A stretch of 64,000 nucleotides of DNA from an uncultured Armatimonadia bacterium (GCA_964555935.1 CAZKUN010000005.1:28335-92334), one strand, 5' to 3'. Shown: positions 1,740 to 64,000, counted from the first letter of the stretch. Numbers and translations are program-made. The notes: a model not told the origin generated them from the sequence alone.

Positions 1740-1754
1740 TCACAGGAGACCAAC

Positions 1755-50009: not shown

Positions 50010-50064
50010 CCGTCTTCCCCCGGTATCGCCTCAAAACTCCATCCCCCCAACCGGAGCCACCAGC

Positions 50065-51534
50065 ATGAGTCTCCCCTCGTCTCGCCCGCCCAATGTCATC
50101 TCCATCATGGCCGACGATATCGGGATCGGCGACTTCGGATGCTACAACTCCGAGTCGCGCGTCCCGACGCCAAGCATCGACCGGCTTGCGGCGGAAGGCG
50201 TGCGGTTCACGGACGCGCACTCAGCGTCGGCCGTGTGCACGCCGTCTCGATACGGCGTGCTGACGGGCCGGTACTGCTGGCGATCTCAACTCGAGTACAG
50301 CGTCCTGTTTGGGTACGAGCCGCCGCTGATCGAGCCGGCTCGGATTACGGTTGCGAGCCTGCTGAAACAGGCGGGTTACTCGACGGCCTGCATCGGGAAG
50401 TGGCACCTGGGCTTGGGCTACTCCGCAAAGCCCGGCGAGGATGTCGACTTCACCGCGCCGCTGCCGTGGCCGAGCCAGACGGCGCGGGAGTTTGAGGAGA
50501 AGATAGACCTCACGCAACCCGTCACCGGCGGGCCGACCGAACTCGGCTTCGACTACTTCTACGGCACGTCCGGGTGTCCGACATGCCAGCCCCCGTATGG
50601 CTTCATTGAGAACGATCGCTTCGTCATCACCCCGACGGAGTACCGCGAGACGCAACCGTTTGCCGGCCGCTCCGGCTACCACGCGCCCGGCTGGGAGCAC
50701 AGGGACGCCGACCCGAAGATCGCGGCGAAGGCGGTGGAGTGGATTGAGGGGCAGGCGGATTCAGACGAGCCGTTCTTCCTCTACCTCGCGTCGGATGCGG
50801 CGCATGAGCCATGTGTCGAAGAGGTCGTGCCGGAGTTCGCGCGAGGCCAAAGCGACGCCGGCCACCGAGGCGATCTCGTCTGGCTGTATGACTGGATGGT
50901 CGGCGAGGTGATGCATGCGCTCGACCGAACGGGTCAGGCCGACAACACGCTGGTCATGGTCACGAGCGACAACGGCGCGCTTCCCGGCGATCGGTTTGGC
51001 GATGGGGCGGGCGACTTCGCGGGCTACCATACGTATGGGCACAGGTCGTGCGGCGACTGGCGCGGGTACAAAGCACACATCTGGGAGGGCGGGCATCGCG
51101 AGCCGCTCATCGCGCGCTGGCCCGGACAGATCGAGGCGGGCTCAACGTGCGACGAGTTGGTGGCGTTGAATGATCTCATGGCCACGTGCGCGGCGGCCAC
51201 CGATCAGGAGCTGCCTCCCGACGCGGGACCTGACAGCGTCAACATATTGCCAGCGCTGCTCGGCGAGACAACTCACGAGCCGCTGCGCGAGAGCCTCGTC
51301 CACCACTCCGGACAGGGGGTCTTCTCGTTGCGCGCTGGCCGATGGAAGCTCATCCACGAGAGTCTCGGCTCGGGCGGATGGCCGCCACCGACGGGCGAGC
51401 GACCCGTGCCCGGCGGACCGGGCCAACTCTACGATCTGAGCGAGGATCCAGCGGAGGGGACGAACCTCTGGCATGAGCGGCAAGACATCGTGAGGGGGCT
51501 GCGCGCGCACCTGGATGAGTTAAGGGCGCGATGA
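50065..51534 (+). CDS. arylsulfatase (formylglycine-type)
   Basis: PPNVISIMADDIG and the canonical CTPSRYGVLTGRY signature, plus SDNG and GGHREP blocks. The ATG at 50065 is preferred. Confidence 0.85.
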   Translation: MSLPSSRPPNVISIMADDIGIGDFGCYNSESRVPTPSIDRLAAEGVRFTDAHSASAVCTPSRYGVLTGRYCWRSQLEYSVLFGYEPPLIEPARITVASLLKQAGYSTACIGKWHLGLGYSAKPGEDVDFTAPLPWPSQTAREFEEKIDLTQPVTGGPTELGFDYFYGTSGCPTCQPPYGFIENDRFVITPTEYRETQPFAGRSGYHAPGWEHRDADPKIAAKAVEWIEGQADSDEPFFLYLASDAAHEPCVEEVVPEFARGQSDAGHRGDLVWLYDWMVGEVMHALDRTGQADNTLVMVTSDNGALPGDRFGDGAGDFAGYHTYGHRSCGDWRGYKAHIWEGGHREPLIARWPGQIEAGSTCDELVALNDLMATCAAATDQELPPDAGPDSVNILPALLGETTHEPLRESLVHHSGQGVFSLRAGRWKLIHESLGSGGWPPPTGERPVPGGPGQLYDLSEDPAEGTNLWHERQDIVRGLRAHLDELRAR

Positions 51535-51544
51535 GGAGTGAGCG

Positions 51545-52498
51545 CTACTGCTCCGGTGAGGGTTCGGGCGGAGTCTCATCTTCCTCGGGTGGCTTCTCGT
51601 CTTCGTCAGGAGTCTCCGGCGCGGGTTCGTCGGTTGTCTCGTCGTCTTTCTTCGGCTTGTTGAAGATGCCGGTGAAGCCGCCCGTGGCCTCCAGACGTTC
51701 GTCCTCGATGTGGATGACGACGGTGGGCGCTTCGCCCGAGTCACCGTTGTCCTGCGTGAACTCGACCGGATCTCCGGTTAGGGTCAGCGTGTCTTCTTCT
51801 TTGAGGTGGACGGCTTTGTCGGCATAGACGGTCTTGTCTTCCTGCACCGCCACCACGTTGCCCTCGGCAACCGCGCGGCCTTCCTCATACCAGCTCGTGA
51901 GCTTCTCGCAAGTCACGACCGTCTTCTTCTCCGCGGCCTCGGCCTTCCTGTCCTTCTCCTCGGTCTCCACCGGCTCGGCGTCGGCGCCTTCCTGGGCGTC
52001 GTCCTTCGTCTTCTGATACACCATCCGGACGTTGCCGGTGACGACAGCCTTTTCCTCATCGAAGTCCGCGGTCAGGAGGTCGCCCGTGACGGTCGTGTCG
52101 GGTTGCTCCATCAGCAGGTTGCCCACGCAACGGGCCGTGTCGTCGCCGGCGTTGTAGACGCACTCGTCGCAGTAGAGTTCTGCGTCCTTGTGGCGGATAT
52201 GCACGTTCCCGTTGAGGTAGTAGAGCCCCTTGTCCTGGTTCTCCGGGTCTTCCGGGTCCGGCTCGCGGCGGGCGTGGTCGGCCCATTCGATGTAGATCGG
52301 CTCGTCGTCTTCCTCATCTTCCGTCGCCGGGGCATCGTCGGCAGCGGGAGCCTCTTCGGTCGCCTTAATATCGGGGGGAGGATCGTCGACGGGCGTATCG
52401 CCATCTTGCGCCGCCGAGATAGCGAGGCAAAGCAAGGCGGCCAGCGCCGCCGCCAGCACCCAAAAACCGAACGTCTTCCGCTGCGCTCTGTCCCCCAT
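51545..52498 (-). CDS. OstA/LptA-like periplasmic protein with acidic low-complexity tails
   Basis: Signal peptide and repeated LptA-style strands (LNGNVHIRHKDAELYCDECVY..., VTGNVRMVYQ, AEGNVVAVQEDKTVYADKAVHL). The N- and C-terminal tails are Asp/Glu/Pro-rich. It starts 2 nt after the LptC-like stop. Confidence 0.55.
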   Translation of the reverse strand: MGDRAQRKTFGFWVLAAALAALLCLAISAAQDGDTPVDDPPPDIKATEEAPAADDAPATEDEEDDEPIYIEWADHARREPDPEDPENQDKGLYYLNGNVHIRHKDAELYCDECVYNAGDDTARCVGNLLMEQPDTTVTGDLLTADFDEEKAVVTGNVRMVYQKTKDDAQEGADAEPVETEEKDRKAEAAEKKTVVTCEKLTSWYEEGRAVAEGNVVAVQEDKTVYADKAVHLKEEDTLTLTGDPVEFTQDNGDSGEAPTVVIHIEDERLEATGGFTGIFNKPKKDDETTDEPAPETPDEDEKPPEEDETPPEPSPEQ

Positions 52499-52500
52499 CG

Positions 52501-53205
52501 CTATCGTCCGGTCCTCTCCTGAGCCTCGGCAACGTCGACCACCATCTGAACGTCATCGAGCGTGAACGCGCCGGTGTCGAGCGGGTACTTCAGGTTCTTG
52601 CCGATGCAATCGCTCCGGCCGGTGTCCATCCGCACTTGGTTTGGCGCGTAGACGGTCTGCGTGTCGGTATCGAACTTCATCCCCGCAGTCGTCACGGTCA
52701 CCCTGTCCTTCGTCCGAAGCACGACGCGCCCTGGCGTCGTCAACATCCGCGACCTGTTGTCCCAATGGATCTTGTCCGTCGTGATGATCGCGCCCTTCGG
52801 CGAAACCACGCGGACGCGCCCCTTCATATCAAAGTCATAAGACACCGTATCGTAGTTGACGTGTTCAGCCGTGACGCGCACGGCGGGCTTTCCGTCCCTG
52901 CCGTAGATGAGCCCTTCCTTCAGGCGGGTCGCGCTGATCGCCTTGCCGCCTGTCTCCACCGCCAGGTTGCTCAACCGCACCTTCCAAGCCGGGCGTCCCC
53001 GCTCGCTATGTTGGAGCGTGAAGTCTTCAATCGCGAGCATCGGCCGAGGCTCGGGGGCGGCGCCAATCTCACCATTGCCGCCGTTGGCGTGGTCACCGTT
53101 GCCATTCGCCGTGGCCGCTTCTCGACGCACGTAGATAGCCGCAAGCACGATTGTGCCCACGAGGATGATGGCAATGATCGTTGCGGCGAGCGCCCTGGTC
53201 GACAT
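52501..53205 (-). CDS. LptC-like membrane-anchored OstA-fold protein
   Basis: Single N-terminal TM (ALAATIIAIILVGTIVLAAIYV), then a beta-jellyroll-like repeat pattern (VRVTAEHVNYD..., GRVRVVSPKGAIITTDKIHWD..., VVLRTKDRVTVTTAGMKFD). Confidence 0.5.
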   Translation of the reverse strand: MSTRALAATIIAIILVGTIVLAAIYVRREAATANGNGDHANGGNGEIGAAPEPRPMLAIEDFTLQHSERGRPAWKVRLSNLAVETGGKAISATRLKEGLIYGRDGKPAVRVTAEHVNYDTVSYDFDMKGRVRVVSPKGAIITTDKIHWDNRSRMLTTPGRVVLRTKDRVTVTTAGMKFDTDTQTVYAPNQVRMDTGRSDCIGKNLKYPLDTGAFTLDDVQMVVDVAEAQERTGR

Positions 53206-53266
53206 GGTGCGTGGTTCTCTTCCCACTTAGACAACGCGCGGAGCGGGCCGCCAGGTCCCCTGCGGC

Positions 53267-53966: not shown

Positions 53967-54326
53967 TCAGCCGCTCAGCCCATAGTAATACCCGATCCGC
54001 ATGACGGCAGTGGCGGGGACTGGCTTGCGCGTGACGATCCGACCGATCTGCCGGACCGAGTCCATCTCGATCCCCTCGCGCCATTCTGTCCCGTCCACAG
54101 TCACTACGAGCGCCTGCCGGACGATCTGCGTCTGGCCGTCAATAATCGCCGTCGAGCCGTCGGTCAGGATTGGGCTGAAGCGCACGTCGAACGGTCCGGT
54201 CGTGCCGGCGCCGGTGAACACGTCTTCCTGGAAGCGGGCGGTGTCGACAGCCGCGCCCCCTCCCCCGCACCCCAACGCTACGACTGCAAGAGACAGCAAG
54301 ACCACACCCAGCACTAGTAGTCTCAT
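53967..54326 (-). CDS. small lipoprotein, paralogue of an internal segment of the 1191-aa envelope protein
   Basis: The ATG at 54326 follows gaggtgg. It has a lipobox (VVALGC). The mature part (ARFQEDVFTGAGTTGPFDVRFSPILTDG...ATAVMRIGYYY) matches residues of 58610..62185 almost position for position. Confidence 0.65.
   Translation of the reverse strand: MRLLVLGVVLLSLAVVALGCGGGGAAVDTARFQEDVFTGAGTTGPFDVRFSPILTDGSTAIIDGQTQIVRQALVVTVDGTEWREGIEMDSVRQIGRIVTRKPVPATAVMRIGYYYGLSG
53981..54243. repeat. dispersed coding repeat, copy A (~263 bp)
   Basis: Aligns without gaps to 61057..61319. It includes an identical 26-nt run, attgggctgaagcgcacgtcgaacgg. Confidence 0.8.
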
Positions 54327-54360
54327 CTTCGCCCACCTCGCCCTTGCCACGCGCCGGAAC

Positions 54361-55545
54361 TTATGGCGCTGTGATCTGGAAATCCACGCCTGTCAACGCC
54401 CGGCCCGCACCACCGAGTGTCACCGTCTTGGCGATGCTGACCGTCTGGAAGCTGACTTCGATCCGATATTGGCCCGGCGGCACGAAGAGTCCATAGTTCC
54501 CGTCCGCGTCCGTGACTACCTCGTCGGTCGTCTGACCGGTAGCCACGAGAATCGCCTTGACGGTCGCGCCGCTGCTGTCCACTTTGTTCAGGATCGTCAC
54601 CTTGCCACTGATGGTCGCCGGCCCTCCGGGCGGCCCCGCCTGGGTCGGCGCAAGCTCAAACTGCAGTTCCGGAAGCCCCGGCAGGACGGTGATATTTCGA
54701 ACGATCGGATCGTAGCCCGGAGCGCTGACATTGACGATCTGATCGCCCACGGGCACGTCAATCAGCTCAAACGTGCCGTCGGCGCCGCTCTGGACGAGGG
54801 CCTCGGCTCCGACCTCCACGGTCGCGTCCTGAATGGGGGCGCGAGTGATGAGATCTATCACGCGCCCGCGAACCGTGGCCTTACTCGTCGTCGCGACGAG
54901 CTGGTAGTCCTCGACAGTGCCGGCCCCGCTCGAATCCTGGATCGAAAGGAAGCTGCGGGTCGTGCTGAGGAAGCCATCCGCGGAGACGACGGCAATCGTG
55001 TTGCCGGTGGGTGTCCCACCGATCGCGTACTGCCCGTCTTTGTCGGTTGCGCCCTCCACGGCGATCGGCGTTCCGGCGACATCGGGCTTGAGATTCAGGC
55101 GGACGTTGGCAATGCCCGTGCCGTCATCAGCGTTCGTAACCGTCCCAGTGACGCTACCCGTCAGATCGAGATCCGCCGCGTCAAGCTCGACCTCCACATC
55201 GGTCGGGCCGCTGACGTTCAGCGTGAGCTGCAGGAGGCGCGTGACGAACCCGCGGGCCGTGACAGTGAGCGGCTGGACAGGCTGGTTGGGCGATGTGAAG
55301 TCACCAAAGGGCACGTCCGGAATCGTGATCGTCTGCTCGCCGGCAGCGATGGTCGCCCGCTCGCCACCGACAATGACGATGACCTCGACCCCGGTGGCCG
55401 CGAGCGTGTCGGCGCTGACGACGGTAACCACCACCGTGCCTGTCGACGATGATCCCGTGCCCGGCGCGGTGACGCGGATCGAACTCGCGCTGCAGCCGAC
55501 GAGCACGGCCGTGGCCAGGGACGCTACGACCCAGATTGCCCTCAT
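54361..55545 (-). CDS. lipoprotein built from ~4 CarboxypepD_reg-like beta-sandwich repeats
   Basis: The ATG at 55545 follows gaggagcgg. It has a lipobox (AVLVGC). Repeats: VTGTVTNADDGTGIANVRLNL, VRGRVIDLITRAPIQDATVEV, ISGKVTILNK... Confidence 0.65.
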   Translation of the reverse strand: MRAIWVVASLATAVLVGCSASSIRVTAPGTGSSSTGTVVVTVVSADTLAATGVEVIVIVGGERATIAAGEQTITIPDVPFGDFTSPNQPVQPLTVTARGFVTRLLQLTLNVSGPTDVEVELDAADLDLTGSVTGTVTNADDGTGIANVRLNLKPDVAGTPIAVEGATDKDGQYAIGGTPTGNTIAVVSADGFLSTTRSFLSIQDSSGAGTVEDYQLVATTSKATVRGRVIDLITRAPIQDATVEVGAEALVQSGADGTFELIDVPVGDQIVNVSAPGYDPIVRNITVLPGLPELQFELAPTQAGPPGGPATISGKVTILNKVDSSGATVKAILVATGQTTDEVVTDADGNYGLFVPPGQYRIEVSFQTVSIAKTVTLGGAGRALTGVDFQITAP

Positions 55546-55569
55546 ACTTCCGCTCCTCACCAGTGGCTC

Positions 55570-58500
55570 CTATCGCGCAACCGAGATCCTACCGACCGCG
55601 CGACTGACTTGACCATCGTCTGACCGAGCGGTGAGATCGATGATGTACGTCCCGCTCGGCACGAGCGCGCCGGTGGCGCTTCTGAGGTCCCACATGAGAG
55701 ACGATCGCCCGGCCGATTGCACGCGCTCCTGCACGATGTCGCGGACGGGTCGGCCCGCGATGTTGAGCACCCGCGCCGTCACGGCCGCGTCGGCCGATAG
55801 CGAATAGGTGATCTCCGCGCCCTGGTGAGTCTGCAGTCCGAGGACGCCGATCACAGCGAGCGCTCCCTGGTTCGCGGGCCTCAGTTCGATCTCAAACTCG
55901 CGCGGCACGTCCGATCCTGTGAACTCATACGCTGACGTCGTCCGCATCGACAACTCCCGTCCGGTCTGGAGATCCTTGAGCACGGGCCTGAGGTCCGCCG
56001 GCACGCCCGTCAGATCCGGCCAGCGCAGGCTGGCTCGGTCGCCAGGGCGGACCCCTCGAGCGCGAAGCCTCCACGGGCCTCGCGCCGCCTTGCCGCGTAT
56101 GTCGGTGGCGTAATCGCCGGAATCGCGATCCCAGTCGGCGTTGACGAAGCCGAGACTCGGTTGGTCGCCGAAGCCCGGCGGCGCCTGCAAGTCGTAGCGC
56201 GAGTCGTACCCAGCCTTCGCCCCGCCCGCCGTGCCGAGAATCGCCTGACCCCGCCGGTCGCCGCACTCCATCATGACCAAGGCCTGCCACTCCGTGCCCG
56301 CAAGCGCGGAGTAGGGCTGCCTCGTGGCGCCGGCGGTGTCCGCTCCCGTGATCGTCGTGCTCGGAGCCGGGAACACCAGCAGAGCGCCGTCAGCCAACAG
56401 GCAGCGCACCCAGTACCCCTCGAACGGGTCGAACTGCGAGGCCAGGCCGTAGCCGGCCAGTTGGTTGTATCCCCACACGCCCGACTGCACCCAGCCGGCC
56501 GCGGCCGCATCCGCGAAGGTCTTCGTGTCCGCCGCCCCACGCTGAATCAGAACGTCGTCGATATCGACCACCCGGTTCCGCCCGGTGCCGACCATGTTCC
56601 AGCCCGCATACATCTGCGTCCGCACGTCCCGAGAGGCGTTGGCCTCAAGCCCGTCCACGGCCACCGTAACATCCTGCAGCACCCGGAGCCAGAAGCCGCG
56701 CCCCGGCCTGAAGAGATCGATGGTCGGGTAGATCTGATACTGCCCGCCGCCCGGCGCGTTCGGCTTCCAGCGCGCGAGGAGAAGCTGGTCGGCGGGAATC
56801 CCCAATGCCGACGCGTGGTCGTCGATGACCGGCGTGACGGGCAGAGACATCAGGTACAGCCCGTTCGCGCCGAGGGGGAAGTTCTTCGCGACGCCCACGC
56901 GCGATTCAGCTGTCAGGAGGACGTCGTAAGTGTCGAACGCCACGTTCACCTGTCGAGTGACGACGTTGTTCTGCGCGTCCGTGAAGGTTATCTGGAGTTT
57001 AGCCGGCGACATCGCCGTCGTGCTGATGCTGGCGCCCCACACCCCCCGCTCGACCTTCACATCCGTCAGTCCACCGAGGCCCGCCACATCGATCGTGCCG
57101 TCGCTGGGGCCGATGATCGCGCCGTAGAGATTGTTGTCGCCCGGATCGAACCCACGCACGCCGTACGGGAAGGGGTACTGGGCAAACAGCCCGTTCACAT
57201 CCATCTGAACCGTGATCCGCTGCGGCCCGCCAACGTTGAAGAACGTCGGGATGAGAAAGCCCTCACCCGCCGCCGCCCCCGTCGCGGGGATCGTGATCTC
57301 GTTGCCTTCCTGGGCGAAGAGCGTCAGCGTGAAGTCGTGGTTGAAGTACGAGGTCCGCGCCGTCCCGCCTCTCGGCAACTCGTCGCCGTTGGTCGTCGTA
57401 TCGTAATGCTCAACGATCAGGGCGACCGCATCGAAGAGAGGGATGTTCCACGTGTAGAGTTTGGGGCCAACCGAGGTGCTCGTGTCGAGCGCGTATTGCT
57501 GCCGATACCAGCCGAAGAATGACTGTCCTTCCATCGACGGGAGGACACCTTGGCAGATCTCAAGCAGGCTCGGCGTGTCGCCGCGAAGCGCATCTTGCTC
57601 CGGGGCGCTGAGCCCGTTGAGCAAGGCGTAATATTGAGTGTTGAAGCGGCGGAAGAACTGGGAGTCTTCGGTGTAGCACTTGAACCACGCCGCGCGCGCC
57701 TGCGCGATTCTCCACACCAGCATTCCCGAGAAGCCCGAGTCCGGGAACCACGTGCTGTTCCCGAGACCGGGTTGGTTCATTGCGTCATATACGGAGCCGC
57801 TGTAGAAGGGTCCGGGGTTGGCCGGATCGTAACCAGGCGACACGCCCGGCGAGATCTGCACGGCGGTCGCCGCGGAACCGATGAATCCGTGCTCCCAGCT
57901 GTCGAAGAACAGTCCCACGTCATCGTGGAACGCGTTGAGCACGAGCAGCATGAGCACGAAGGTGTCTTCGGGGAAGTTGCCGCTCATCGGCGGCAGGCGC
58001 AGCTCGTTGGTGGTCATGTCGTACGTGCCGCCCTGCAGCTCGCTGAGCGTGTCGTCCCTGATGACCTTGACGGTGATGTCAAACGCCGGTGGGCCGTAGA
58101 TGACCCGTGCGATCGGCATGGCGTCCTGCAGGTAGTTCGCCAGGTCGGCTTCGTCGGCGGCCGACCAGCCGTCGAAATCGAAGGTGATGTTGTTCGCCGC
58201 GTCGCCGATCGCCGTGCCCGTATCGCGGGCGCGGGCGAGGTCGGGCAGGATCAGCGAGGTGCCCTGCAGATGCACCACCGTGCGCGGAACGCGGACCTTC
58301 GCGTCACGGGTCTTGATCCCGTTCCGTCGCATGAACTCCATCGCCACGGAGGCCTGGCTGAGGCCCTGCTCGGAGTGTTGCGAGTCGGTCGCTGTCTGCA
58401 CCACGCGAGCGGCGCTCGATCGATCGGTCGTCCACATCCGGCCGCGATGCTGAACAACAATCGCGCCCTGGGGCCCGTTGCTTGTGGCTGCGTGCGGCGT

Positions 58501-58608
58501 GTTGCGGAGGTTGGTGAAGGGGTTCTGACCCGCATGAGCCACGCCGCAGGCGACGAGTGCCCCGATTACGCACAGGATGGATAACGCGGTCTTCGCCTGT
58601 GAGCGCAT
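55570..58608 (-). CDS. 1013-aa secreted protein, unknown N-terminal region, shared C-terminal module and FlgD-Ig/T9SS-CTD-like end
   Basis: The ATG at 58608 lies 1 nt after the upstream stop (MRSQAKTALSILCVIGALVACGVAHA signal). The C-terminal third matches the M6 and S8 proteins (GRGFWLRV..., DLRPVLKDLQTGRELSMRTTSAYEF, VTARVLNIAGRPVRDI...SGTYIIDL). The listed 1210-aa form reads the upstream gene's repeat in another frame. Confidence 0.7.
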   Translation of the reverse strand: MRSQAKTALSILCVIGALVACGVAHAGQNPFTNLRNTPHAATSNGPQGAIVVQHRGRMWTTDRSSAARVVQTATDSQHSEQGLSQASVAMEFMRRNGIKTRDAKVRVPRTVVHLQGTSLILPDLARARDTGTAIGDAANNITFDFDGWSAADEADLANYLQDAMPIARVIYGPPAFDITVKVIRDDTLSELQGGTYDMTTNELRLPPMSGNFPEDTFVLMLLVLNAFHDDVGLFFDSWEHGFIGSAATAVQISPGVSPGYDPANPGPFYSGSVYDAMNQPGLGNSTWFPDSGFSGMLVWRIAQARAAWFKCYTEDSQFFRRFNTQYYALLNGLSAPEQDALRGDTPSLLEICQGVLPSMEGQSFFGWYRQQYALDTSTSVGPKLYTWNIPLFDAVALIVEHYDTTTNGDELPRGGTARTSYFNHDFTLTLFAQEGNEITIPATGAAAGEGFLIPTFFNVGGPQRITVQMDVNGLFAQYPFPYGVRGFDPGDNNLYGAIIGPSDGTIDVAGLGGLTDVKVERGVWGASISTTAMSPAKLQITFTDAQNNVVTRQVNVAFDTYDVLLTAESRVGVAKNFPLGANGLYLMSLPVTPVIDDHASALGIPADQLLLARWKPNAPGGGQYQIYPTIDLFRPGRGFWLRVLQDVTVAVDGLEANASRDVRTQMYAGWNMVGTGRNRVVDIDDVLIQRGAADTKTFADAAAAGWVQSGVWGYNQLAGYGLASQFDPFEGYWVRCLLADGALLVFPAPSTTITGADTAGATRQPYSALAGTEWQALVMMECGDRRGQAILGTAGGAKAGYDSRYDLQAPPGFGDQPSLGFVNADWDRDSGDYATDIRGKAARGPWRLRARGVRPGDRASLRWPDLTGVPADLRPVLKDLQTGRELSMRTTSAYEFTGSDVPREFEIELRPANQGALAVIGVLGLQTHQGAEITYSLSADAAVTARVLNIAGRPVRDIVQERVQSAGRSSLMWDLRSATGALVPSGTYIIDLTARSDDGQVSRAVGRISVAR

Positions 58609-58609
58609 C

Positions 58610-61600
58610 TTAGATATCCCGCATGTCGTCGATCGGAAAAGCATCGGTCCCTCCCACCTCGCTCCACGGATCCCCAAGTGTCGGCTGCGAAACCACTGTC
58701 CGTTGCGGACGTCCCATCTGCGGCGCGCCGGGATCCTGTCCGAGCGGCCCGGACGTGCCCCAACCATCCGCGTAGCCAGGACCATACGTTCCCGGCTGGC
58801 CCTGATCGAAGCCCTCGAGTCCGGTGAACTCGCCGCTGCCCCGGCTGCCCGAGTATGGGTTGTAATTGCCACCATAGTTGCCGCCACCATAGTTGCCGCC
58901 ACCATAGTTGCCGCCACCATAGTTACCGCCACCATAGTTGCCGCCACCGTAGCTGCCGCCACCATAGCTGCCGCCGCCATAGCTGCCGCCGCCATAGCTG
59001 CCGCCGCCGTAGCTGCCGCCGCCGAAGCCCGACGATCCCCCGCCGGACCGGCCAAACTGCCCGTAGCCGCCGTAGGAATTGGTATACCCGCCTCCCATCG
59101 ACCCGCCCCTGGACCCACCGTACATCCCGCCCTGGCCGCCCAACATCTGGAAGCTCTGATTGCGGTTGCCGAGCGAGGAGAGTCCACCAGTGAATCCGCC
59201 ACCGAAACCGCCGCCCCCGCCGCCGCCGCCGAAGATGCCGCCGCCAGGCCTGATCGACTGGTTCATGTTGCCGGCGTCACGACGACGATCGCCGCTGACC
59301 GATCCCTGGAAATTCGTGGAGAGAGACAGCATGAGGAGATTGGTCGTGTAGTCCTGGCCCGCAGCGGTGACGCCCGGGATCGTCGTATCGCTCTGCGGGA
59401 GTCGCGAGTCATTGCGGATGAGTTGCCACCCGAAGTTCAGCCCCATGCTGGGGGTCAGCTCGTAGTTCAGGGCGATCTCAGCCGTCTGCTTGGCGAAGTC
59501 CGAGTAGCCGCTCACGAAGTCACTGAACCCCACGCGCCCGGTGATCCGCGACCGATCGTTCAACTCGTACTGAACGTCGGTCACGACATCGAGCAGGCTC
59601 GTGTCCGTCAGCGTGGCGATCTCGTTCTCGCCCGTTCCAGCGAAGTCCGGACTCACGCCCCACTGCTTGTTGACGTTGAAGCGGTAACTCAACGCGCTCT
59701 TCTCGGGGCGGTAGCTGGCGCCAAGACTGAAGCTGTTGTTGAGCACTCCGCCGCGGTCCTCGTCGAGGAACTGCAGCAGGTCCGAACCGACCGATGCGTT
59801 CAGCGACCACTCCCTAGTAGGCAGCCAGCTCAGACCGATGTTCCCGTAGCGCTGGTCGCTGTCGGCAAGATACCCCACGGAGCCGGCGCTCTCGTACTTG
59901 CGCATGCCCAAACTCGCATCGACGTTGATCTTGTCGCTCGGTTGCCACGACAGTCCAAGCCGGGAGGTCGAGTCGGTGTACCGGCTGAGTTCGGGCTCGT
60001 CCTCATCCGGCAACGGATCGCCGCCGCCGATCTGCAGCGGCATGAGCGTGCCGGAAAGGCCGAACGGAACCCCGCCGATGTTCCCGCCGTAACCGCCGCC
60101 CAGACCCGAGGAGTACCCGCCGAACCCGATTCCGCCGCCATAGAAGCCACTCGTCACGGCGCCGATCGCCTCGGTCCGCGACCAGTCGAGGTTGAGGTCG
60201 AGGTTGTCCATCACGCGCCAACGCGTGCTGACCTGAAGATTCTCAGAGTCGCCGCGCTGCGCCTGGAAGTTGCTGGCCGAGTTGTTCTGGCTGTAGTTTG
60301 TGGCGAATGACAGCGAGTCGCTCGGCGTCCACGAGGCCGCCATCGTGAGCGTCTTGGTGCTGCTGGACTGAGCCGATCCCAACGGATCCGTGTCGTCGGC
60401 GTCCGCAAAGCCTGCGTAGTTCTGCTGCGTGTCCATCACGCCGATGCGGAAGGTGTATGGCTTCTTGGCTGGCGCGTAGTCGAGATTGATGTTCATCGTC
60501 TCGAGCAAACTGTTGGCCTGACTCCCGCCGGTGTTTTCCATCGTCTGGCGGGAGAGGCTGAGATTCGGCCAGCCCGGATAGTTCAACATTAGCATCGAGT
60601 CGTTGCGCGTGGCTCGAACACCCAGCGTTGGCGTCGTTGCGGGGTCTTGGTAGGCCCGGTCCAGGCTGGTATCAGCCCCAAAGCCCGTTCCGCCCGTGTA
60701 GCCGCTATAGCCATACGCGTAGCCCGAGTCGGTCTTGACGTCGGAGAAGCGGTGGGTGAAGGAGATCTTGTCGGATGGTCGATACCCGAACGCGGCCGTC
60801 AGGCCTTTCTCGTTCCGGAAGAACCCGACCGTGTCAATGTAGCTGTAGGTGGGGTCGACGTCACGATACTGCAAGTCTATGTCGAACTTGCGCCCGCGCC
60901 GATAACGCGCGCCCGTGCTCAGCGCCACGCCAGTCTCGCCGCCACTTTCGCTCTGAGCCGCCGTGAGGTCCCATTGGAGATCATCATCCAATCGGTGCCT
61001 GAGAGTAAGCCCCGTCACCGTGGTATCCCCAAGCGAGCTGCCGCTCGGCCCAACCTGATAGTAGTACCGAACGCGCACGACGGCCGTGGCGGGGACTGGT
61101 CTGCGCGTGATGATCCGGCCGATCTGCCGGATCGAGTCCATCTCGATGCCCTCGCGCCACTCTGTCTCGTCGACCAGGAACACGAGCGCCTGCCGGATGA
61201 TCTGCTCTTGGCCGTCAATGGTCGCCGTCGCGCCGTCGGCCAGAATTGGGCTGAAGCGCACGTCGAACGGACCCGTCGTACCTGATCCGGTGAACAGGTC
61301 TTCCTGGAAGCGCGCCGTGCTGTTGCTGCCCCCCGCGCTCGTCGCGTGCTCGAGTCGCGTGACGGACAGTTGCAGGTCGTCGTGCAGCAGCGCGCTCTCA
61401 AGCTGCCAACCGGAGGTGGTGCCGCCGGTCTCGTAGTTGGTCGCCGACTGGTAGCTGACTGACACCACGCTCGTGCTGGGAATGATCGTCGGCGGCTGGC
61501 CGGGCGGCTCGAACCAGAGCTGCCCCGTGTCGTAGTCGAGGGTGTAGTCCTCGCCAAAGCGCATGGGCCGCTCGTCGATCTTCACGAGTTCGGAGCCATC

Positions 61601-62185
61601 GACAACCGGCGTGAACGTCAGGAAGTACGGACCAGAGGTGTTGTTGCCGGGGAACGTCTGGCGCCGGACGAGGCCCTTCTCCTGCGACGTGAAAGCCCGG
61701 AAGAGCATGTTGTCGTTGATGCGGTGATCGAGTTGCAGCCCCTCGAGGCTCTTCGAGTATGACGCGAACTGGTTCCCGCCGATGTTGACATTCAGGTCGC
61801 CCCAAAGCAGCGCCGTGTTCTTGCTTTGGTAGCCAACGACGAACTGGTTGTTGTTGAAGCCATACCCGCTGTTGGCAATGTGGGCGCGCAAACCGAAGTT
61901 GCCGTAGATAGGTCCCACGATGTCGAAGCTCGTGGTCGCCTGCATCGGCGACGTGTTCCAAAACTGCGACTGATACGCTTCCTCGGAGCCGGCGGTGAAG
62001 TTCTGCCGGAGGGAAAACTCGCCTCGGCCAGAGATCTGAAGTCCGTCGAAGAGATCGCCCGTCGCGTCGTCCGCCTTATCGAACCATCGCGAAACAGCGT
62101 CGAACAGATCCGCGTTGGCCAGCGGGCCTATGGCAAGCCCGCCGATGACCAAACCCAATCTCAGTGCGGCGCCCCATGCACGCAA
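58610..62185 (-). CDS. 1191-aa putative outer-membrane beta-barrel-type protein with Gly/Tyr-rich C-terminal tail
   Basis: Signal peptide (LGLVIGGLAIGPLANA). Long stretches show alternating aromatic/polar beta-strand patterns (ALNYELTPSMGLNFGWQL, LGLSWQPSDKINVDASLGM, ...). An inserted soluble-looking domain is present (ARFQEDLFTGSG...RVRYYY). The final ~170 aa are G/Y/S/N low complexity. Confidence 0.55.
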   Translation of the reverse strand: MRAWGAALRLGLVIGGLAIGPLANADLFDAVSRWFDKADDATGDLFDGLQISGRGEFSLRQNFTAGSEEAYQSQFWNTSPMQATTSFDIVGPIYGNFGLRAHIANSGYGFNNNQFVVGYQSKNTALLWGDLNVNIGGNQFASYSKSLEGLQLDHRINDNMLFRAFTSQEKGLVRRQTFPGNNTSGPYFLTFTPVVDGSELVKIDERPMRFGEDYTLDYDTGQLWFEPPGQPPTIIPSTSVVSVSYQSATNYETGGTTSGWQLESALLHDDLQLSVTRLEHATSAGGSNSTARFQEDLFTGSGTTGPFDVRFSPILADGATATIDGQEQIIRQALVFLVDETEWREGIEMDSIRQIGRIITRRPVPATAVVRVRYYYQVGPSGSSLGDTTVTGLTLRHRLDDDLQWDLTAAQSESGGETGVALSTGARYRRGRKFDIDLQYRDVDPTYSYIDTVGFFRNEKGLTAAFGYRPSDKISFTHRFSDVKTDSGYAYGYSGYTGGTGFGADTSLDRAYQDPATTPTLGVRATRNDSMLMLNYPGWPNLSLSRQTMENTGGSQANSLLETMNINLDYAPAKKPYTFRIGVMDTQQNYAGFADADDTDPLGSAQSSSTKTLTMAASWTPSDSLSFATNYSQNNSASNFQAQRGDSENLQVSTRWRVMDNLDLNLDWSRTEAIGAVTSGFYGGGIGFGGYSSGLGGGYGGNIGGVPFGLSGTLMPLQIGGGDPLPDEDEPELSRYTDSTSRLGLSWQPSDKINVDASLGMRKYESAGSVGYLADSDQRYGNIGLSWLPTREWSLNASVGSDLLQFLDEDRGGVLNNSFSLGASYRPEKSALSYRFNVNKQWGVSPDFAGTGENEIATLTDTSLLDVVTDVQYELNDRSRITGRVGFSDFVSGYSDFAKQTAEIALNYELTPSMGLNFGWQLIRNDSRLPQSDTTIPGVTAAGQDYTTNLLMLSLSTNFQGSVSGDRRRDAGNMNQSIRPGGGIFGGGGGGGGFGGGFTGGLSSLGNRNQSFQMLGGQGGMYGGSRGGSMGGGYTNSYGGYGQFGRSGGGSSGFGGGSYGGGSYGGGSYGGGSYGGGSYGGGNYGGGNYGGGNYGGGNYGGGNYGGNYNPYSGSRGSGEFTGLEGFDQGQPGTYGPGYADGWGTSGPLGQDPGAPQMGRPQRTVVSQPTLGDPWSEVGGTDAFPIDDMRDI
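58868..59017. repeat. 10 x 15-bp tandem repeat (gccaccatagttgcc / gccgccatagctgcc)
   Basis: Read directly, with exact 15-nt period. Five units have agtt and five have agct. On the minus strand they encode (SYGGG)x5 then (NYGGG)x5. Confidence 0.9.
61057..61319. repeat. dispersed coding repeat, copy B (~263 bp)
   Basis: Counterpart of 53981..54243, inside the 1191-aa gene. Confidence 0.8.
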
Positions 62186-62306: not shown

Positions 62307-63383
62307 TCAGAGGCCGAATCTGGTAATCAGTTCCTCGACCATGTCGAGGTTCCTCTCGGCGGCGGCCCTCAGGCGGTCGGCCCGCGTCTCGAGCGAGTCC
62401 CCGCTTGCGTCTCGATCCGCCCAGGCGTCCGATATGACCTGGACCACTTCGTCCTCCGACGCGCTCCGGTCCAGCCACGTCGCGTCGACGCTCTCCGCGA
62501 ACGCGGCGACCTTTGGATCGTACGACAGGGCCACGAAATCCACGCCCTGCGCGGCGGCGAAGATCGCCGAGTGCAGGCGCATCGCCACGACCAGGTCGAG
62601 GCTTCTGACAAGGCCGATCCACCGTTGGGGAGACAGTTCGTCATCCGCCCCGACGACGCGTCCGCCCGCCTCGGCGGCAACGCGCTCGGCAATCCTCGCA
62701 TCGACCGGCCGGTGCAGGGCCAACGGGACAATGCTCGCCTCGGCGGACAACTCGCCCGCCGCCCGAAGCGCTCCGTCGACCAACGCCTCGCATCCGCTCA
62801 CGTCACGAAGCGCCAGGCCTAGCCGCGGACCCTCGCTCGCGGGCGGGAGCAGATGAGCCACATCTTCGGGAGGAGACGGTTCGGCCAAAGGCGCCGGGTC
62901 AGCGGCGACGAGCACGCGCTCGCGGTCCACGCCAAGGCTGACCAGCAAGTCCGCCGATGCCTCGTCACGGACGGTGATGGCGGCCGCCTTGCGCGCGGCG
63001 CGTCCGGTGAACAGTCTCGCGAGGGAGCCCGTGAGCGGTCCGATGCCCTGGGCGTAGAAGGCGTATGGCGTTCGCCGCCACGTGGCCGCTTCGAGGATTG
63101 CCAGGTAATAGGCCGCCGACTTGGCGCTGGTCGCGTCCTGCAGCAACCCTCCCCCGCCCTGGAGCACGAGGTCAGCCCAGCCGATTGCTCGCCAGACAGC
63201 CGCCTTGTCCCAGCGGTCCTCGGCTTGGACGCCATGCCCGCCGCGGGTGGCGGCGGGGTCGTTCGACAAGACCGCCAACTCGCAGTCCGGGACACGCCGC
63301 CGAAGGCCATCAAGCGTTCCCGCCAGAATCGCCTCGTCGCCCGCGTTGCCGAAACCGTAGTAGCCTGAGATCAGTATCCGCAT
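62307..63383 (-). CDS. csaB: polysaccharide pyruvyl transferase CsaB
   Basis: The ATG at 63383 gives MRILISGYYGFGNAGDEAILAG, the hallmark CsaB N-terminus. The remainder is collinear with pyruvyl transferases. The listed 401-aa start overlaps the upstream gene. Confidence 0.8.
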   Translation of the reverse strand: MRILISGYYGFGNAGDEAILAGTLDGLRRRVPDCELAVLSNDPAATRGGHGVQAEDRWDKAAVWRAIGWADLVLQGGGGLLQDATSAKSAAYYLAILEAATWRRTPYAFYAQGIGPLTGSLARLFTGRAARKAAAITVRDEASADLLVSLGVDRERVLVAADPAPLAEPSPPEDVAHLLPPASEGPRLGLALRDVSGCEALVDGALRAAGELSAEASIVPLALHRPVDARIAERVAAEAGGRVVGADDELSPQRWIGLVRSLDLVVAMRLHSAIFAAAQGVDFVALSYDPKVAAFAESVDATWLDRSASEDEVVQVISDAWADRDASGDSLETRADRLRAAAERNLDMVEELITRFGL

Positions 63384-63399
63384 GAGATCGCCGCGCCGT

Positions 63400-64000
63400 C
63401 TACTCCCCGCCATCCCGCGGCGACCCAGACGCGAGCCTCCGCCAGCAGGTCTCGCCGATCTCGCAGATCGCGTAGAGCACGACGCCAAGGGCGGCGCCGA
63501 GCCACAGGCCATGGAGCGCGCGCGATAGCGAGATCTCGACGGGGGTGTGGAGGTGGCTGAACGTGTTCACGAGCGACACGAGCCCGACCGTGCCAACCGA
63601 CAGGATGATCCATCGCCCGGCCTGTTTCCCAGCCAACATGCGCGCCAGCCCAAGAACCAGGAACGGGTATCCGATGAGGACTTCCTTCGTCCTCGGCCGC
63701 ACGCCAAATGCCCGGTCCATCAACGCGCGAAACTTCAGCTCAACCACCGACACGCCCAGTCCGCTGTCGTTGCCGCTTCGCATGATGAGGACGGCCATGC
63801 CGGCAACGCCGATGAGCAGCGCCGCAACGTGCCAGTACCGCACCACGCCCTCGGCCGCCTTGCGCCAGCCACGCATCAGGACGCGCCACCGAGATTCGTC
63901 GTCGCCCGCTCCGTCGGCGCCGAGGTCCCACCCCATCAGAATCAGCAAGACGGCCACGAGCGGCACGAACTGTGAGGGCTTCACGCCGCGGAACTGGTCG
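63400..64000 (-). CDS. polytopic membrane protein, C-terminal part only (of the kind often found upstream of csaB)
   Basis: The frame remains open to the window edge (...DQFRGVKPSQFVPL...). It has 5-6 hydrophobic helices and its stop is 16 nt before the csaB start. The family assignment (DUF5693-like) comes from memory of csaB neighbourhoods only. Confidence 0.45.
   Translation of the reverse strand, partial: DQFRGVKPSQFVPLVAVLLILMGWDLGADGAGDDESRWRVLMRGWRKAAEGVVRYWHVAALLIGVAGMAVLIMRSGNDSGLGVSVVELKFRALMDRAFGVRPRTKEVLIGYPFLVLGLARMLAGKQAGRWIILSVGTVGLVSLVNTFSHLHTPVEISLSRALHGLWLGAALGVVLYAICEIGETCWRRLASGSPRDGGE

What the first reader, a model, noticed from the sequence alone, without database searches (positions are those of the whole stretch)
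58850..59250. Perfect-period 15-bp repeats encode an (S/N)YGGG array within a Gly/Tyr-rich low-complexity C-terminal tail
Ten head-to-tail 15-bp units (58868..59017) encode SYGGG x5 then NYGGG x5. They are embedded in about 170 residues of G/Y/S/N/F-rich sequence (GGIFGGGGGGGGFGGGF..., GGQGGMYGGSRGGSMGGGYTNSYGGYGQFG...) at the C-terminus of the 1191-aa envelope protein. The two blocks of five near-identical units suggest recent expansion by slippage, so length may vary between strains. Gly/Tyr arrays of this kind are better known from eukaryotic phase-separating or structural proteins and are rare in bacterial envelope proteins. They could give a gel-like, adhesive or cross-linkable (di-tyrosine) surface layer.
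Basis: seen in the sequence. Interest (0 to 1): 0.65.

Follow-up and report, generated by a model that had tools for sequence, protein, structure and literature searches.

The report
Gly/Tyr repeat tail on giant barrel
The ten 15-bp repeats are real and code part of a floppy, glycine-rich, tyrosine-studded tail that one group of Armatimonadota bacteria added to the inner (periplasmic) end of a giant, uncharacterised outer-membrane barrel protein; the tail is kept in composition in all 55 relatives examined but is constantly rebuilt by repeat slippage, and what it does is still inferred, not shown.

Summary
Observation confirmed. Window 58868-59017 (- strand) holds ten head-to-tail 15-bp units (TRF score 229, 94% match, the strongest tandem repeat in the 64 kb). 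They encode GSYGG x5 then GNYGG x5, residues 1057-1106 of a 1191-aa protein.

The protein is a signal-peptide-bearing giant outer-membrane beta-barrel of about 36-38 strands (AlphaFold2). It has no Pfam family and is found only in Armatimonadota MAGs.

The repeat lies in a 232-residue disordered tail that follows the barrel's last strand and its ancestral C-terminal Phe (F959). Tail-less distant relatives end exactly there. All 55 aligned homologs carry such a tail:
- 87-263 aa long, 11-41% Gly (18-41% in all but one);
- an aromatic residue about every 5-7 positions, more evenly spaced than in shuffles;
- always closed by a Pro/acidic/Trp module (here GDPW...FPIDDMRDI).

The interior is not conserved. 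Relatives carry independent arrays of 9-42 bp, so slippage turnover is shown. Strain-level length variation is not shown.

Strand parity puts the start of the tail at the periplasmic face, against the proposed surface layer.

Best reading, inferred: a cohesive disordered plug or tether at the barrel's periplasmic mouth, latched by its terminal motif. The gene sits in a conserved envelope cluster: CsaB, barrel, large secreted protein, lipoprotein, LptC/LptA.

The parts
58868..59017 (-). Ten head-to-tail 15-bp units encoding GSYGG x5 then GNYGG x5 (residues 1057-1106)
   Evidence: TRF score 229, period 15, 10.2 copies, 94% match. Exact unitigs in six metagenomes.
58613..59308 (-). Whole C-terminal tail (residues 960-1191): disordered, Gly-rich, Tyr/Phe-studded, added after the ancestral terminal Phe959
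   Evidence: AF2 pLDDT about 25 for residues 964-1191. Tail-less distant relatives end at the homologous Phe.
59193..59250 (-). Poly-Gly/Phe-Gly start of the tail (GGGIFGGGGGGGGFGGGFTGG)
   Evidence: Sequence and translation. GCC/CCG short repeats found by TRF. Many unrelated metagenome unitigs pile up here, which shows low complexity.
58613..58687 (-). Terminal module QPTLGDPWSEVGGTDAFPIDDMRDI: the Pro/acidic/Trp end of the tail
   Evidence: PIDDMRD(V/I) is conserved in the 11 nearest homologs and in 5 metagenome loci. Across the family the last 30 residues hold W 9.0% against 0.7% in the rest of the tail, and D+E 20% against 6.6%. A Trp is present in 54 of 54.
58610..62185 (-). Gene for the 1191-aa giant outer-membrane beta-barrel: signal peptide, about 36-38 strands, two small inserted beta domains at residues 180-239 and 300-368
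   Evidence: ORF. AF2 pTM 0.69 with barrel pLDDT mostly 80-97. Foldseek finds only generic large barrels: LptD, SlpA, MtrB, SprA, at TM 0.16-0.29. No Pfam match. 61 homologs, all Armatimonadota.
59984..60160 (-). Internal G/Y/F-rich disordered loop B (residues 676-734), on the face opposite the tail
   Evidence: pLDDT 32-45. Composition. Eleven strands lie between it and the C-terminus. A G/Y-rich loop B is also present in tail-less distant relatives.
60620..60730 (-). Internal G/Y-rich loop A (residues 486-522), on the same face as loop B
   Evidence: pLDDT <50 for residues 503-514. Family composition G 22%, S 16%, Y 12%.
55570..58608 (-). Gene 2: a 1012-aa secreted multi-domain protein with a FlgD_ig C-terminal domain. 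Its start codon lies 1 nt after the barrel gene's stop. It is co-inherited with the tail-bearing barrel.
   Evidence: Pfam FlgD_ig. It follows the barrel gene in 40 of 41 species loci and in 0 of 5 tail-less relatives. AF2 pLDDT 89: an alpha/beta domain plus about 7 beta-sandwich domains, with no specific structural match.
54361..55560 (-). Lipoprotein with three CarboxypepD_reg domains, a conserved third gene of the cluster
   Evidence: Pfam 104.6 bits. Present in 31 of 33 loci long enough to show it. The lipobox LVGC is read from the sequence.
51545..53226 (-). LptC homolog (52501-53226) and LptA/OstA-like protein (51545-52498) at the downstream end of the cluster
   Evidence: TIGR04409 LptC scores 44.9 bits, above its cut-off of 38. 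LptA scores 34.8 bits, below its cut-off. Pfam LptC, OstA_2 and LptD_N match. An LptC homolog follows the lipoprotein in 20 of 27 loci.
62307..64000 (-). CsaB pyruvyl transferase (62307-63512) and a DUF5693 protein (63400 to the window end) directly upstream
   Evidence: TIGR03609 CsaB scores 254 bits, above its cut-off of 213. DUF5693 matches at 1.4e-55. The same pair lies upstream of the barrel in distant and tail-less relatives.

Best explanation
Shown:
- The array is a recent in-frame slippage expansion inside a ~230-residue intrinsically disordered tail.
- One Armatimonadota clade appended this tail after the ancestral C-terminal Phe (beta-signal) of a giant outer-membrane beta-barrel.
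- The tail has two parts. The first is a Gly-rich spacer with Tyr/Phe about every 5-7 residues. Its composition and even aromatic spacing are conserved, but its sequence and length turn over by birth and decay of short coding repeats. The second is a conserved Pro/acidic/Trp terminal module.

Inferred from topology: the tail starts at the periplasmic rim of the barrel.

Inferred mechanism: the aromatic 'stickers' in a glycine 'spacer' make the tail a cohesive, self-associating chain. Together with the G/Y-rich loops A and B of the same barrel, it would occlude or gate the very wide lumen or periplasmic mouth as a soft plug. The terminal Trp/acidic module would latch it to the barrel or to a co-inherited partner, either the gene 2 product or the lipoprotein. 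On this view selection acts on amount, composition and spacing, which is why slippage arrays such as (S/N)YGGG x10 are tolerated and keep arising.

The confidence given is for the inferred mechanism. I put the descriptive part (real, translated, periplasmic-origin, family-wide disordered tail evolving by slippage) at about 0.9.
For: - Real and translated: and the in-frame conserved terminus.
- Disordered: pLDDT about 25.
- Family-wide composition: 55 of 55 homologs, tails 87-263 aa, G 11-41% (18-41% in 54 of 55), few aliphatic residues.
- Aromatic spacing is more even than in shuffles in 54 of 55, median z -1.6. A purely entropic linker would not need this.
- Independent arrays of period 9-42 bp in relatives.
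- Two-part design with a Trp/acidic end in 54 of 54.
- The tail is an add-on. Distant relatives found by the profile search end at the last strand with ...F.
- Periplasmic start: 11 strands separate loop B from the C-terminus, and all long loops lie on the other face.
- The same G/Y composition occurs in loops A and B of the barrel, also in tail-less relatives, and in the N-terminal (also periplasmic) extensions of some of them. This points to a shared environment at or inside the barrel.
- The barrel has about 36-38 strands and only two ~60-residue inserted domains. No folded plug of matching size is predicted.
- My estimate: about 330 disordered residues (~30 kDa) in a lumen of roughly 90 nm3 would give a dense gel-like filling.
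Against: - No experiment or structure places the tail in the lumen.
- AlphaFold2 gives no confident contact for the tail or its terminal motif.
- I had no model coordinates, so the strand count (36-38) and the single-barrel geometry are read from DSSP only.
- The gene 2 product or the lipoprotein could be the real plug, as LptE is for LptD.
- Even aromatic spacing is partly an automatic by-product of tandem-repeat origin, and the homologs are not independent samples.
- Tail length does not compensate for loop length across homologs (Spearman rho about 0.09 and -0.09). A fixed-volume plug might predict such compensation.
- The tail and gene 2 co-occur, but this may reflect a single evolutionary event.
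Confidence: 0.35

Rival explanations
1. Pure flexible tether ('fishing line'). The Gly-rich part only supplies reach and flexibility in the periplasm. The working part is the terminal Pro/acidic/Trp motif, which docks to a partner: the gene 2 product, the lipoprotein, the Lpt bridge, the cell wall or a membrane interface. Repeat number only tunes length.
For: - The terminal module is the only conserved sequence in the tail, with subfamily-specific versions: PIDDMRDV, RWWQWYD, DPWDLAGDAVSLY, EGLSRWDL..GEWW.
- The interior varies freely in sequence and in length, 87-263 aa.
- Tail-bearing barrels are followed by gene 2 in 40 of 41 loci. Tail-less relatives lack gene 2 in 5 of 5.
- Tail-less relatives carry a similar W/acidic/Leu motif ([ET]LWD[AL]L) in N-terminal extensions, which are also periplasmic.
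Against: - A mere linker does not explain why Tyr/Phe are kept at 9-21% and evenly spaced in nearly all homologs.
- It also does not explain why the same composition recurs in the barrel's own loops on the opposite face.
- No partner interface could be tested with the tools at hand.
Confidence: 0.3
2. The tail is displayed on the cell surface, threaded back through its own barrel as in inverse autotransporters. There it forms an adhesive, gel-like or di-tyrosine cross-linked layer.
For: - A lumen this wide could pass an unfolded Gly-rich chain.
- From established knowledge: in inverse autotransporters (intimin/invasin) the passenger is C-terminal to the barrel.
- The composition resembles extracellular structural proteins such as resilin, silk GGX and plant glycine-rich proteins (my knowledge, not tested here).
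- Loops A and B, with the same composition, are predicted on the outer face.
Against: - The tail starts at the periplasmic face.
- No passenger-like folded domain is present, and no oxidase or peroxidase gene was seen among the cluster's neighbours that were scanned.
- The tail ends in a conserved short motif typical of a docking peptide rather than of a matrix protein.
- Some tail-less relatives place G/Y-rich segments at the N-terminus, which is also periplasmic.
Confidence: 0.1
3. Functionless, tolerated low-complexity sequence. A GC-rich genome plus slippage produces Gly-rich junk between the barrel and a terminal signal, with no selection on the spacer.
For: - The genome is 62-68% G+C, so GGN codons are cheap.
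- Arrays are born and decay quickly.
- No sequence conservation in the interior.
Against: - The tail is retained in 55 of 55 homologs down to 32% barrel identity, with similar composition.
- Aromatic spacing is non-random.
- Apart from an internal loop of the same protein, nothing else in 64 kb of the same genome has this composition, so it is not a genome-wide drift product.
Confidence: 0.12
4. Assembly artefact or untranslated DNA. On this view the array, or its copy number, was created by mis-assembly, or a frameshift upstream keeps it out of the protein.
For: - An earlier assembly of the same organism broke on both sides of this region.
- k=31 unitigs cannot count identical units.
Against: - Every junction of the array is present, mismatch-free, in unitigs of several independent metagenomes from 2017-2025. 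Depth ratios fit the window's count.
- The frame runs uninterrupted into a terminal motif conserved in relatives.
- The differences between units are synonymous in that frame.
Confidence: 0.03

Closest known systems
Aromatic-sticker / glycine-spacer low-complexity domains of eukaryotes: FUS-type [G/S]Y[G/S] prion-like domains, FG-nucleoporin GLFG/FG domains, and Gly/Tyr structural proteins such as resilin, plant glycine-rich proteins and silk GGX blocks
   Same: Composition (Gly 11-41%, Tyr/Phe about every 5-7 residues, few charged or aliphatic residues), predicted disorder, even aromatic spacing, and evolution by tandem short repeats. Like FG domains, the tail is anchored to a large pore scaffold. 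Its start (IFGGGGGGGGFGGGF) and the tails of P0010 and P0011 are literally FG-rich.
   Different: There is no homology; HMMER finds nothing in PDB or Pfam for the tail. The setting is a bacterial periplasm and outer membrane. The tail is a single chain per barrel rather than many chains per pore. It ends in a conserved Trp/acidic motif. Cohesion or phase behaviour is untested. The comparison rests on my knowledge of those families, not on a tool result.
LptD/LptE lipopolysaccharide translocon
   Same: A large outer-membrane barrel with a cognate lipoprotein gene, in a cluster that includes LptC and an LptA/OstA-like protein. LptD is the top Foldseek hit. Published surveys report that 'atypical' (Terrabacteria) diderms keep lptA/B/C/F/G but lack lptD/lptE (PMC8871954; PMC5007114).
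   Different: No LptD or OstA_C Pfam or NCBIfam match and no N-terminal beta-jellyroll. TM-score only 0.16-0.23. About 36-38 strands rather than 26. LptC is absent next to 7 of 27 clusters. LptD has no Gly/Tyr tail. The deepest conserved neighbour is CsaB, not Lpt.
SprA/Sov, the 36-strand type IX secretion translocon with its Plug and PorV partners
   Same: A giant single-chain barrel that needs something to close a very wide lumen. The neighbouring gene product and two proteases in the window end in a FlgD_ig, T9SS-CTD-like domain.
   Different: TIGR04189 scores 11.6 bits against a cut-off of 200. TM-score 0.15-0.27. The protein is half the size of SprA. No other T9SS gene was seen. SprA is closed by folded proteins, not by a disordered tail.
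Outer-membrane barrels with a periplasmic tethering extension: OmpA C-terminal domain, OmpM/SlpA SLH plus coiled coil
   Same: A barrel joined to a periplasmic appendage. The genomic link to CsaB, the enzyme that makes the pyruvylated cell-wall polymer bound by SLH domains. OmpM-type tethers are reported in Armatimonadetes.
   Different: No SLH, OmpA_C or coiled-coil domain. The appendage is C-terminal, disordered and low-complexity. No peptidoglycan-binding module is recognisable.
Predicted 38-stranded barrels of Deinococcus radiodurans (PMC9388160)
   Same: Very large predicted barrels in a deep-branching diderm of the Terrabacteria, function unknown.
   Different: Homology was not tested because the sequences were not at hand. 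No tail is reported for them.

Membership tests
LptD (OstA) LPS translocon | Match to the LptD barrel model (PF04453 / OstA_C) above its threshold | tested here: not met
   Pfam returned no family at E<=1. NCBIfam returned only EpsL and SprA fragments. PDB sequence search with the family profile returned 0 hits.
LptD (OstA) LPS translocon | N-terminal OstA/LptA-like beta-jellyroll fused to a 26-strand barrel | tested here: not met
   The AF2 model has a signal peptide, one short helix, and then about 36-38 strands from residue 50. There is no jellyroll. Foldseek to LptD gives TM 0.16-0.23.
LptD (OstA) LPS translocon | Genomic or functional association with Lpt bridge proteins and a plug lipoprotein | tested here: inconclusive
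   LptC (44.9 bits, cut-off 38) and an LptA-like protein lie downstream, with a CarboxypepD_reg lipoprotein between them and the barrel. LptC is present in 20 of 27 loci. It is absent near P0031 and near tail-less relatives.
SprA/Sov T9SS translocon | TIGR04189 match above 200 bits and a ~2,300-aa, 36-strand barrel | tested here: not met
   11.6 bits over 86 residues. The protein is 1191 aa. Foldseek TM 0.15-0.27.
EpsL (XrtB/PEP-CTERM-associated outer-membrane protein) | TIGR03014 match above 275 bits | tested here: not met
   33.4 bits, residues 734-828 only. This is generic beta-hairpin similarity.
OmpM/SlpA-type SLH tethers | N-terminal SLH domain (and coiled coil) joined to the barrel | tested here: not met
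   No SLH match in Pfam. AF2 shows no coiled-coil stalk. Foldseek to SlpA gives TM 0.29-0.34, barrel only.
Inverse autotransporter (type Ve) | A 12-strand barrel followed by a folded C-terminal passenger exported through it | tested here: not met
   The barrel has about 36-38 strands. The C-terminal extension has no folded domain, pLDDT about 25, and no Pfam match.
Cohesive aromatic-sticker low-complexity domain (a functional class, not a homology family) | Disorder, Gly/Ser-type spacer, regularly spaced aromatic residues | tested here: met
   pLDDT about 25. G 38%, Y+F 12% in this protein. Aromatic spacing CV 0.47, z -2.6 against shuffles here; z<0 in 54 of 55 homologs.
Cohesive aromatic-sticker low-complexity domain (a functional class, not a homology family) | Demonstrated self-association, condensation or gel formation that depends on the aromatic residues | not testable with these tools
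   This needs the purified tail and Tyr/Phe->Ser variants.
Coding minisatellite evolving by replication slippage | Head-to-tail units whose length is a multiple of 3, high DNA identity between neighbours, different arrays in relatives | tested here: met
   15-bp units at 94% identity, with neighbouring units most alike. Relatives carry arrays of 9-42 bp at the equivalent place.
Coding minisatellite evolving by replication slippage | Copy-number polymorphism within the population | tested here: inconclusive
   No alternative junctions in 7-8 metagenomes, but k=31 unitigs cannot count units and they drop rare variants.

The most novel reading that the evidence does not exclude
The giant barrel with its lipoprotein is the outer-membrane end of an envelope export route in Armatimonadota. 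This could be the LPS translocon that LptD/LptE-less Terrabacteria diderms are reported to lack, or an exporter or anchor for CsaB-pyruvylated polysaccharide. On this reading its Gly/Tyr/Phe tail and loops form a nucleoporin-like cohesive gel. The gel would seal a ~6-7-nm pore while letting the cargo through, which would be a bacterial counterpart of the FG permeability barrier.
Probability: 0.1. Interest if true: 0.9.

Novelty: new variant of a known kind. Interest (0 to 1): 0.55.

Why it matters
Three reasons.

1. Disordered, aromatic-studded glycine-rich domains are textbook material for eukaryotic condensates and the nuclear pore. Here one is a conserved, clade-defining appendage of a bacterial outer-membrane barrel, at the periplasmic face. 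In my searches of the held paper library I found no description of such a case.

2. The carrier protein belongs to an unannotated superfamily: no Pfam family, and 834 cluster representatives in 1.84 billion proteins. Its members are among the largest predicted single-chain barrels. It is tightly linked to CsaB and often to LptC/LptA, in a phylum whose relatives are reported to lack LptD/LptE. It is therefore a concrete candidate for an unsolved part of envelope biogenesis in deep-branching diderms.

3. The locus is a clean natural experiment on how selection on composition, rather than on sequence, lets coding minisatellites arise and decay.

If the tail turns out to be only a linker, the finding reduces to a well-documented but ordinary low-complexity region.

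Tried and rejected
- Sequence searches with the tail alone against PDB and Pfam returned nothing. HMMER's composition filters remove such queries.
- A degenerate DNA pattern for (F/Y)PIDDMRD(V/I) in JGI metagenome contigs found 5 true relatives and 2 chance hits, but not the window's own species. No independent full-length assembly was available for counting units.
- Logan unitigs of 8 DNA runs confirm the k-mers and junctions but cannot resolve copy number or rare alleles. All runs were contigs; no raw reads were on offer.
- Metatranscriptomes gave only three short exact contigs in the gene body and none in the tail. This is weak evidence of expression.
- The fold search for the barrel returned only generic large barrels at TM <= 0.34. 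The PDB profile search returned nothing.
- AF2 plus Foldseek of gene 2 gave a confident model (pLDDT 89) but only generic Ig/macroglobulin-like matches, so no function follows.
- The test for compensation between tail length and loop lengths found no correlation.
- Literature searches on giant barrels, Gly/Tyr outer-membrane tails, DUF5693/CsaB and Armatimonadota Lpt found no description of this family.
The strand count and the topology therefore rest on the DSSP string and on the rule that the C-terminus of a bacterial outer-membrane barrel is periplasmic.
Full report
**1. The observation**

The DNA at 58868-59017 is a perfect-period 15-bp array. TRF reports period 15, 10.2 copies, 94% matches, no indels and score 229. 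It is by far the strongest tandem repeat in the 64-kb window; the runner-up scores 92.

On the - strand the units read five times GGCAGCTAyGGyGGC (Gly-Ser-Tyr-Gly-Gly) and then five times GGyAACTATGGTGGC (Gly-Asn-Tyr-Gly-Gly). Only four positions vary between units. Three are synonymous third positions in this frame. The fourth is the single G->A that turns Ser into Asn, and all five distal units share it. A GGC->GGT change is shared by units 4-10. Neighbouring units are therefore the most alike, which is the signature of stepwise slippage or unequal exchange.

The array is residues 1057-1106 of ORF 58610..62185(-), 1191 aa.

**2. Is it translated and is it assembled correctly?**

The frame runs on to ...LGDPWSEVGGTDAFPIDDMRDI*. 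The nearest homologs are only 56-60% identical overall, yet they end with the same GDPW...(F/Y)PIDDMRD(V/I)* after their own, different, low-complexity stretches. A frameshift in or before the array would destroy this terminus. The next gene starts at ATG 58608, one base after the TAA stop.

Logan unitigs of marine metagenomes sampled in 2017, 2020, 2021 and 2025 tile the array without a mismatch. One 97-nt piece (58895-58991) crosses the Ser/Asn block boundary in X1, X2, X4 and X7. The collapsed unit 58883-58924 has 1.5-2.9 times the depth of the flanks. I calculate about 2-3 times from the window sequence.

No alternative junction was seen. However, k=31 unitigs cannot count identical units and they drop rare variants. 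An earlier assembly of the same organism in the protein database broke on both sides of this DNA: the protein is cut at residue 907 on a 38-kb contig, and gene 2 sits on a separate 5.2-kb contig. The structure of the array is therefore confirmed, but its exact unit number still needs long reads.

Three metatranscriptomes each hold one exact contig from the gene body, which is weak evidence of expression.

**3. What carries it**

The protein has a typical signal peptide (MRAWGAALRLGLVIGGLAIGPLANA, by inspection). It has no Pfam family and only sub-threshold NCBIfam fragments: EpsL at 33 bits against 275, and SprA at 11.6 bits against 200.

AlphaFold2 with 55 homologs gives pTM 0.69, with barrel strands mostly at pLDDT 80-97. 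About 36-38 long strands span residues 50 to 962. Two small beta domains are inserted at 180-239 and 300-368. Disordered G/Y-rich loops lie at 486-522 (A) and 676-734 (B). The tail, 964-1191, is fully disordered at pLDDT about 25.

Foldseek finds only generic big barrels (LptD, SlpA, MtrB, SprA) with TM 0.16-0.34. A profile search of PDB sequences finds nothing.

Homologs are 61 proteins in the 5.8-billion set and 61 loci among GTDB species genomes. Every named one is an Armatimonadota MAG, including Armatimonadia, 'Zipacnadia' and WS1. A profile search of 1.84 billion cluster representatives finds 834 members at E<=1e-3.

**4. The tail is a clade-specific add-on at the periplasmic end**

Distant relatives (E 1e-40 to 1e-123; 851-1116 aa) align along the barrel and then stop. 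They end ...LSLSAGF...ELNARF...LNVHF...FNLHF...LTAQF...DLVLRF. This is the classical C-terminal aromatic beta-signal of bacterial outer-membrane barrels (established knowledge). The homologous residue here is the invariant F959, and the tail follows it.

The C-terminus of such barrels is periplasmic. Consistently, eleven strands separate loop B from the C-terminus and eight separate loop A from loop B. All long loops (444-458, 486-522, 591-605, 676-734, 928-945) therefore fall on one face, and the tight 2-6-residue turns and the tail fall on the other. The tail thus starts in the periplasm, not on the surface.

**5. The tail is conserved as a design, not as a sequence**

After F959 all 55 aligned homologs have 87-263 residues (median 167). 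Gly is 11-41% of these residues (18-41% in all but the acid-rich tail of P0018), Tyr+Phe is about 10-20%, and there are few aliphatic or charged residues.

In the Gly-rich part an aromatic residue comes every 5-7 positions. The spacing is more even than in shuffles in 54 of 55 proteins (median z -1.6; this protein -2.6).

The last 30 residues are a different module. Trp is 9.0% there against 0.7% in the rest of the tail. Asp+Glu is 20% against 6.6%, Pro is 13%, and Gly falls to 11%. A Trp is present in 54 of 54. The module comes in subfamily-specific versions: PIDDMRD[VI], WWQEDV, RWWQWY[DE], DWWLLGDN..W, EGLSRWDL..GEWW, DPWDLAGDAVSLY, DDLYSIWW.

The interior turns over. Relatives carry their own arrays: SSYYGGG x5-7 (21/42 bp), GFGGGSFGG, GYGTG, YGGG, GYG[AS]G, with periods of 9-42 bp. 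Most are short or decayed. The window's array is the longest and cleanest.

Nothing else in the 64-kb window has this composition except loop B of the same protein, so it is not a genome-wide effect of 62-68% G+C.

**6. Context**

The barrel gene lies in a conserved envelope cluster on the - strand:
- DUF5693;
- CsaB pyruvyl transferase (254 bits, above its cut-off);
- the barrel;
- gene 2 (1012 aa, FlgD_ig C-terminal domain);
- a CarboxypepD_reg lipoprotein;
- a small lipoprotein;
- a second CarboxypepD_reg protein;
- LptC (44.9 bits, above its cut-off);
- an LptA/OstA-like protein.

Among species-level loci, gene 2 follows the barrel in 40 of 41, the lipoprotein in 31 of 33, and LptC in 20 of 27. 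The order holds down to a 32%-identical homolog.

Five tail-less distant relatives were looked up. Four sit directly after CsaB, three of these also with DUF5693, and none has gene 2. CsaB is therefore the deepest conserved neighbour. The tail and gene 2 appear together in one clade. That may be a single evolutionary event, so it is weak evidence of a functional link.

Gene 2 folds confidently (pLDDT 89) into an alpha/beta domain plus about seven beta-sandwich domains, but it matches only generic Ig/macroglobulin arrays.

Published surveys report that 'atypical' diderms keep lptA/B/C/F/G but lack lptD/lptE (PMC8871954). In diderm Firmicutes no LptD/E could be found, 'or a non-homologous system' is used (PMC5007114). 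This barrel plus lipoprotein next to LptC/LptA is therefore a candidate worth testing, but no more than that. It fails every LptD membership test I could run.

**7. How it most likely works**

Shown: the tail is a real, translated, disordered, two-part appendage that starts at the periplasmic rim. It is conserved in composition, aromatic spacing and terminal motif, and it is rebuilt by slippage.

Inferred: because Tyr/Phe are kept and evenly spaced, the spacer is probably more than an entropic linker. Three further points bear on this. The same G/Y composition occurs in loops A and B on the other face of the barrel. It persists in tail-less relatives, some of which also have G/Y-rich N-terminal (periplasmic) extensions. 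And a barrel this wide has no folded plug of its own.

My preferred reading is therefore a cohesive soft plug or gate at the lumen or periplasmic mouth, latched by the Trp/acidic end (confidence about 0.35). The closest rival is a plain tether that presents the terminal motif to a partner (about 0.3). The two are not exclusive. Surface display (about 0.1), functionless filler (about 0.12) and artefact (about 0.03) are less likely, for the reasons given under rivals.

A possible extra clue comes from the tail-less relatives. Many carry a [ET]LWD[AL]L motif in their N-terminal extension, which resembles the DPWDL, SRWDL and DWWLL endings of the tails. That would fit a docking motif moved from one periplasmic terminus to the other. 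I did not test this statistically.

**8. Comparison and novelty**

In kind, the tail is an aromatic-sticker, glycine-spacer low-complexity domain, as in FUS-type and FG-nucleoporin domains. The array is an ordinary coding minisatellite.

What is new is the setting: a phylum-restricted, unannotated superfamily of giant outer-membrane barrels, a periplasmic C-terminal extension beyond the beta-signal, and a conserved terminal motif. In my searches of the held paper library I found no description of the family or of such tails. I rate it a new variant of a known kind, with interest 0.55. It is solid and unusual, but its function is inferred.

Noticed in passing
window 53967-54350 (-): A 127-aa lipoprotein (lipobox ALGC) is a stand-alone copy of the barrel's inserted domain 2 (residues ~290-385, ARFQED.FTG.GTTGPFDVRFSPIL...). 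In all other loci only the barrel itself matches it, so the duplication is specific to this lineage.
   Followed up: partly
window 51545-53226 (-) and related loci L002, L003, L009, L013-L068: LptC (above the NCBIfam cut-off) and an LptA/OstA-like protein with two jellyroll-type matches close the cluster. An LptC homolog follows the lipoprotein in 20 of 27 species loci. Papers report that Terrabacteria-type diderms lack lptD/lptE, so the giant barrel plus lipoprotein is a candidate outer-membrane partner.
   Followed up: partly
window 62307-64000 (-); loci L002, L003, L072-L074, L076: CsaB (pyruvyl transferase for the SLH-binding cell-wall polymer), usually with DUF5693, lies directly upstream of the barrel gene even in distant, tail-less relatives. 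In L076 the two genes overlap by 8 nt. This is the most deeply conserved neighbour of the superfamily.
   Followed up: partly
window 33453-37040 (+) and 37093-40566 (+): An M6 (immune inhibitor A-like) peptidase and an S8 subtilase both end in a FlgD_ig domain, like gene 2. In this organism the domain looks like a shared C-terminal tag on secreted proteins.
   Followed up: no
window 27113-27865 (-), repeats at 27234-27743: A single-pass membrane protein has Gly/Pro/Met-rich low-complexity stretches at both ends (GMGGPGGGMSGMGGPGG...; GGRGGRGGGRGG...GGGMGGPGGGMGG) around a helical core. The stretches are coded by 21- and 39-bp repeats. This is a second repeat-built Gly-rich envelope protein, but without aromatic residues.
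   Followed up: no
proteins P0233, P0241, P0252, P0262, P0269, P0285 (distant relatives): Tail-less relatives carry N-terminal extensions with one to three copies of a [ET]LWD[AL]L / TIWEKLN motif. Others (P0197, P0206, P0213) have G/Y-rich N-terminal extensions. The motif resembles the Trp/acidic/Leu endings of the C-terminal tails.
   Followed up: partly
loci L012, L044, L050/L070, L052, L055, L059, L062-L064, L066/L068, L008: Many MAG contigs end inside this gene. In L008 the contig ends inside the tail itself, and two MAGs hold the gene split over two contigs. The low-complexity loops and tail are frequent assembly break points, so the family is probably under-counted and truncated in databases.
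   Followed up: no
window 1740-4370 (+), 8152-11034 (-), 49966-51534 (+): A GH5 cellulase with CBM_4_9, a heparinase II/III / alginate-lyase-like protein and a sulfatase suggest a polysaccharide-degrading lifestyle for this marine Armatimonadota organism.
   Followed up: no
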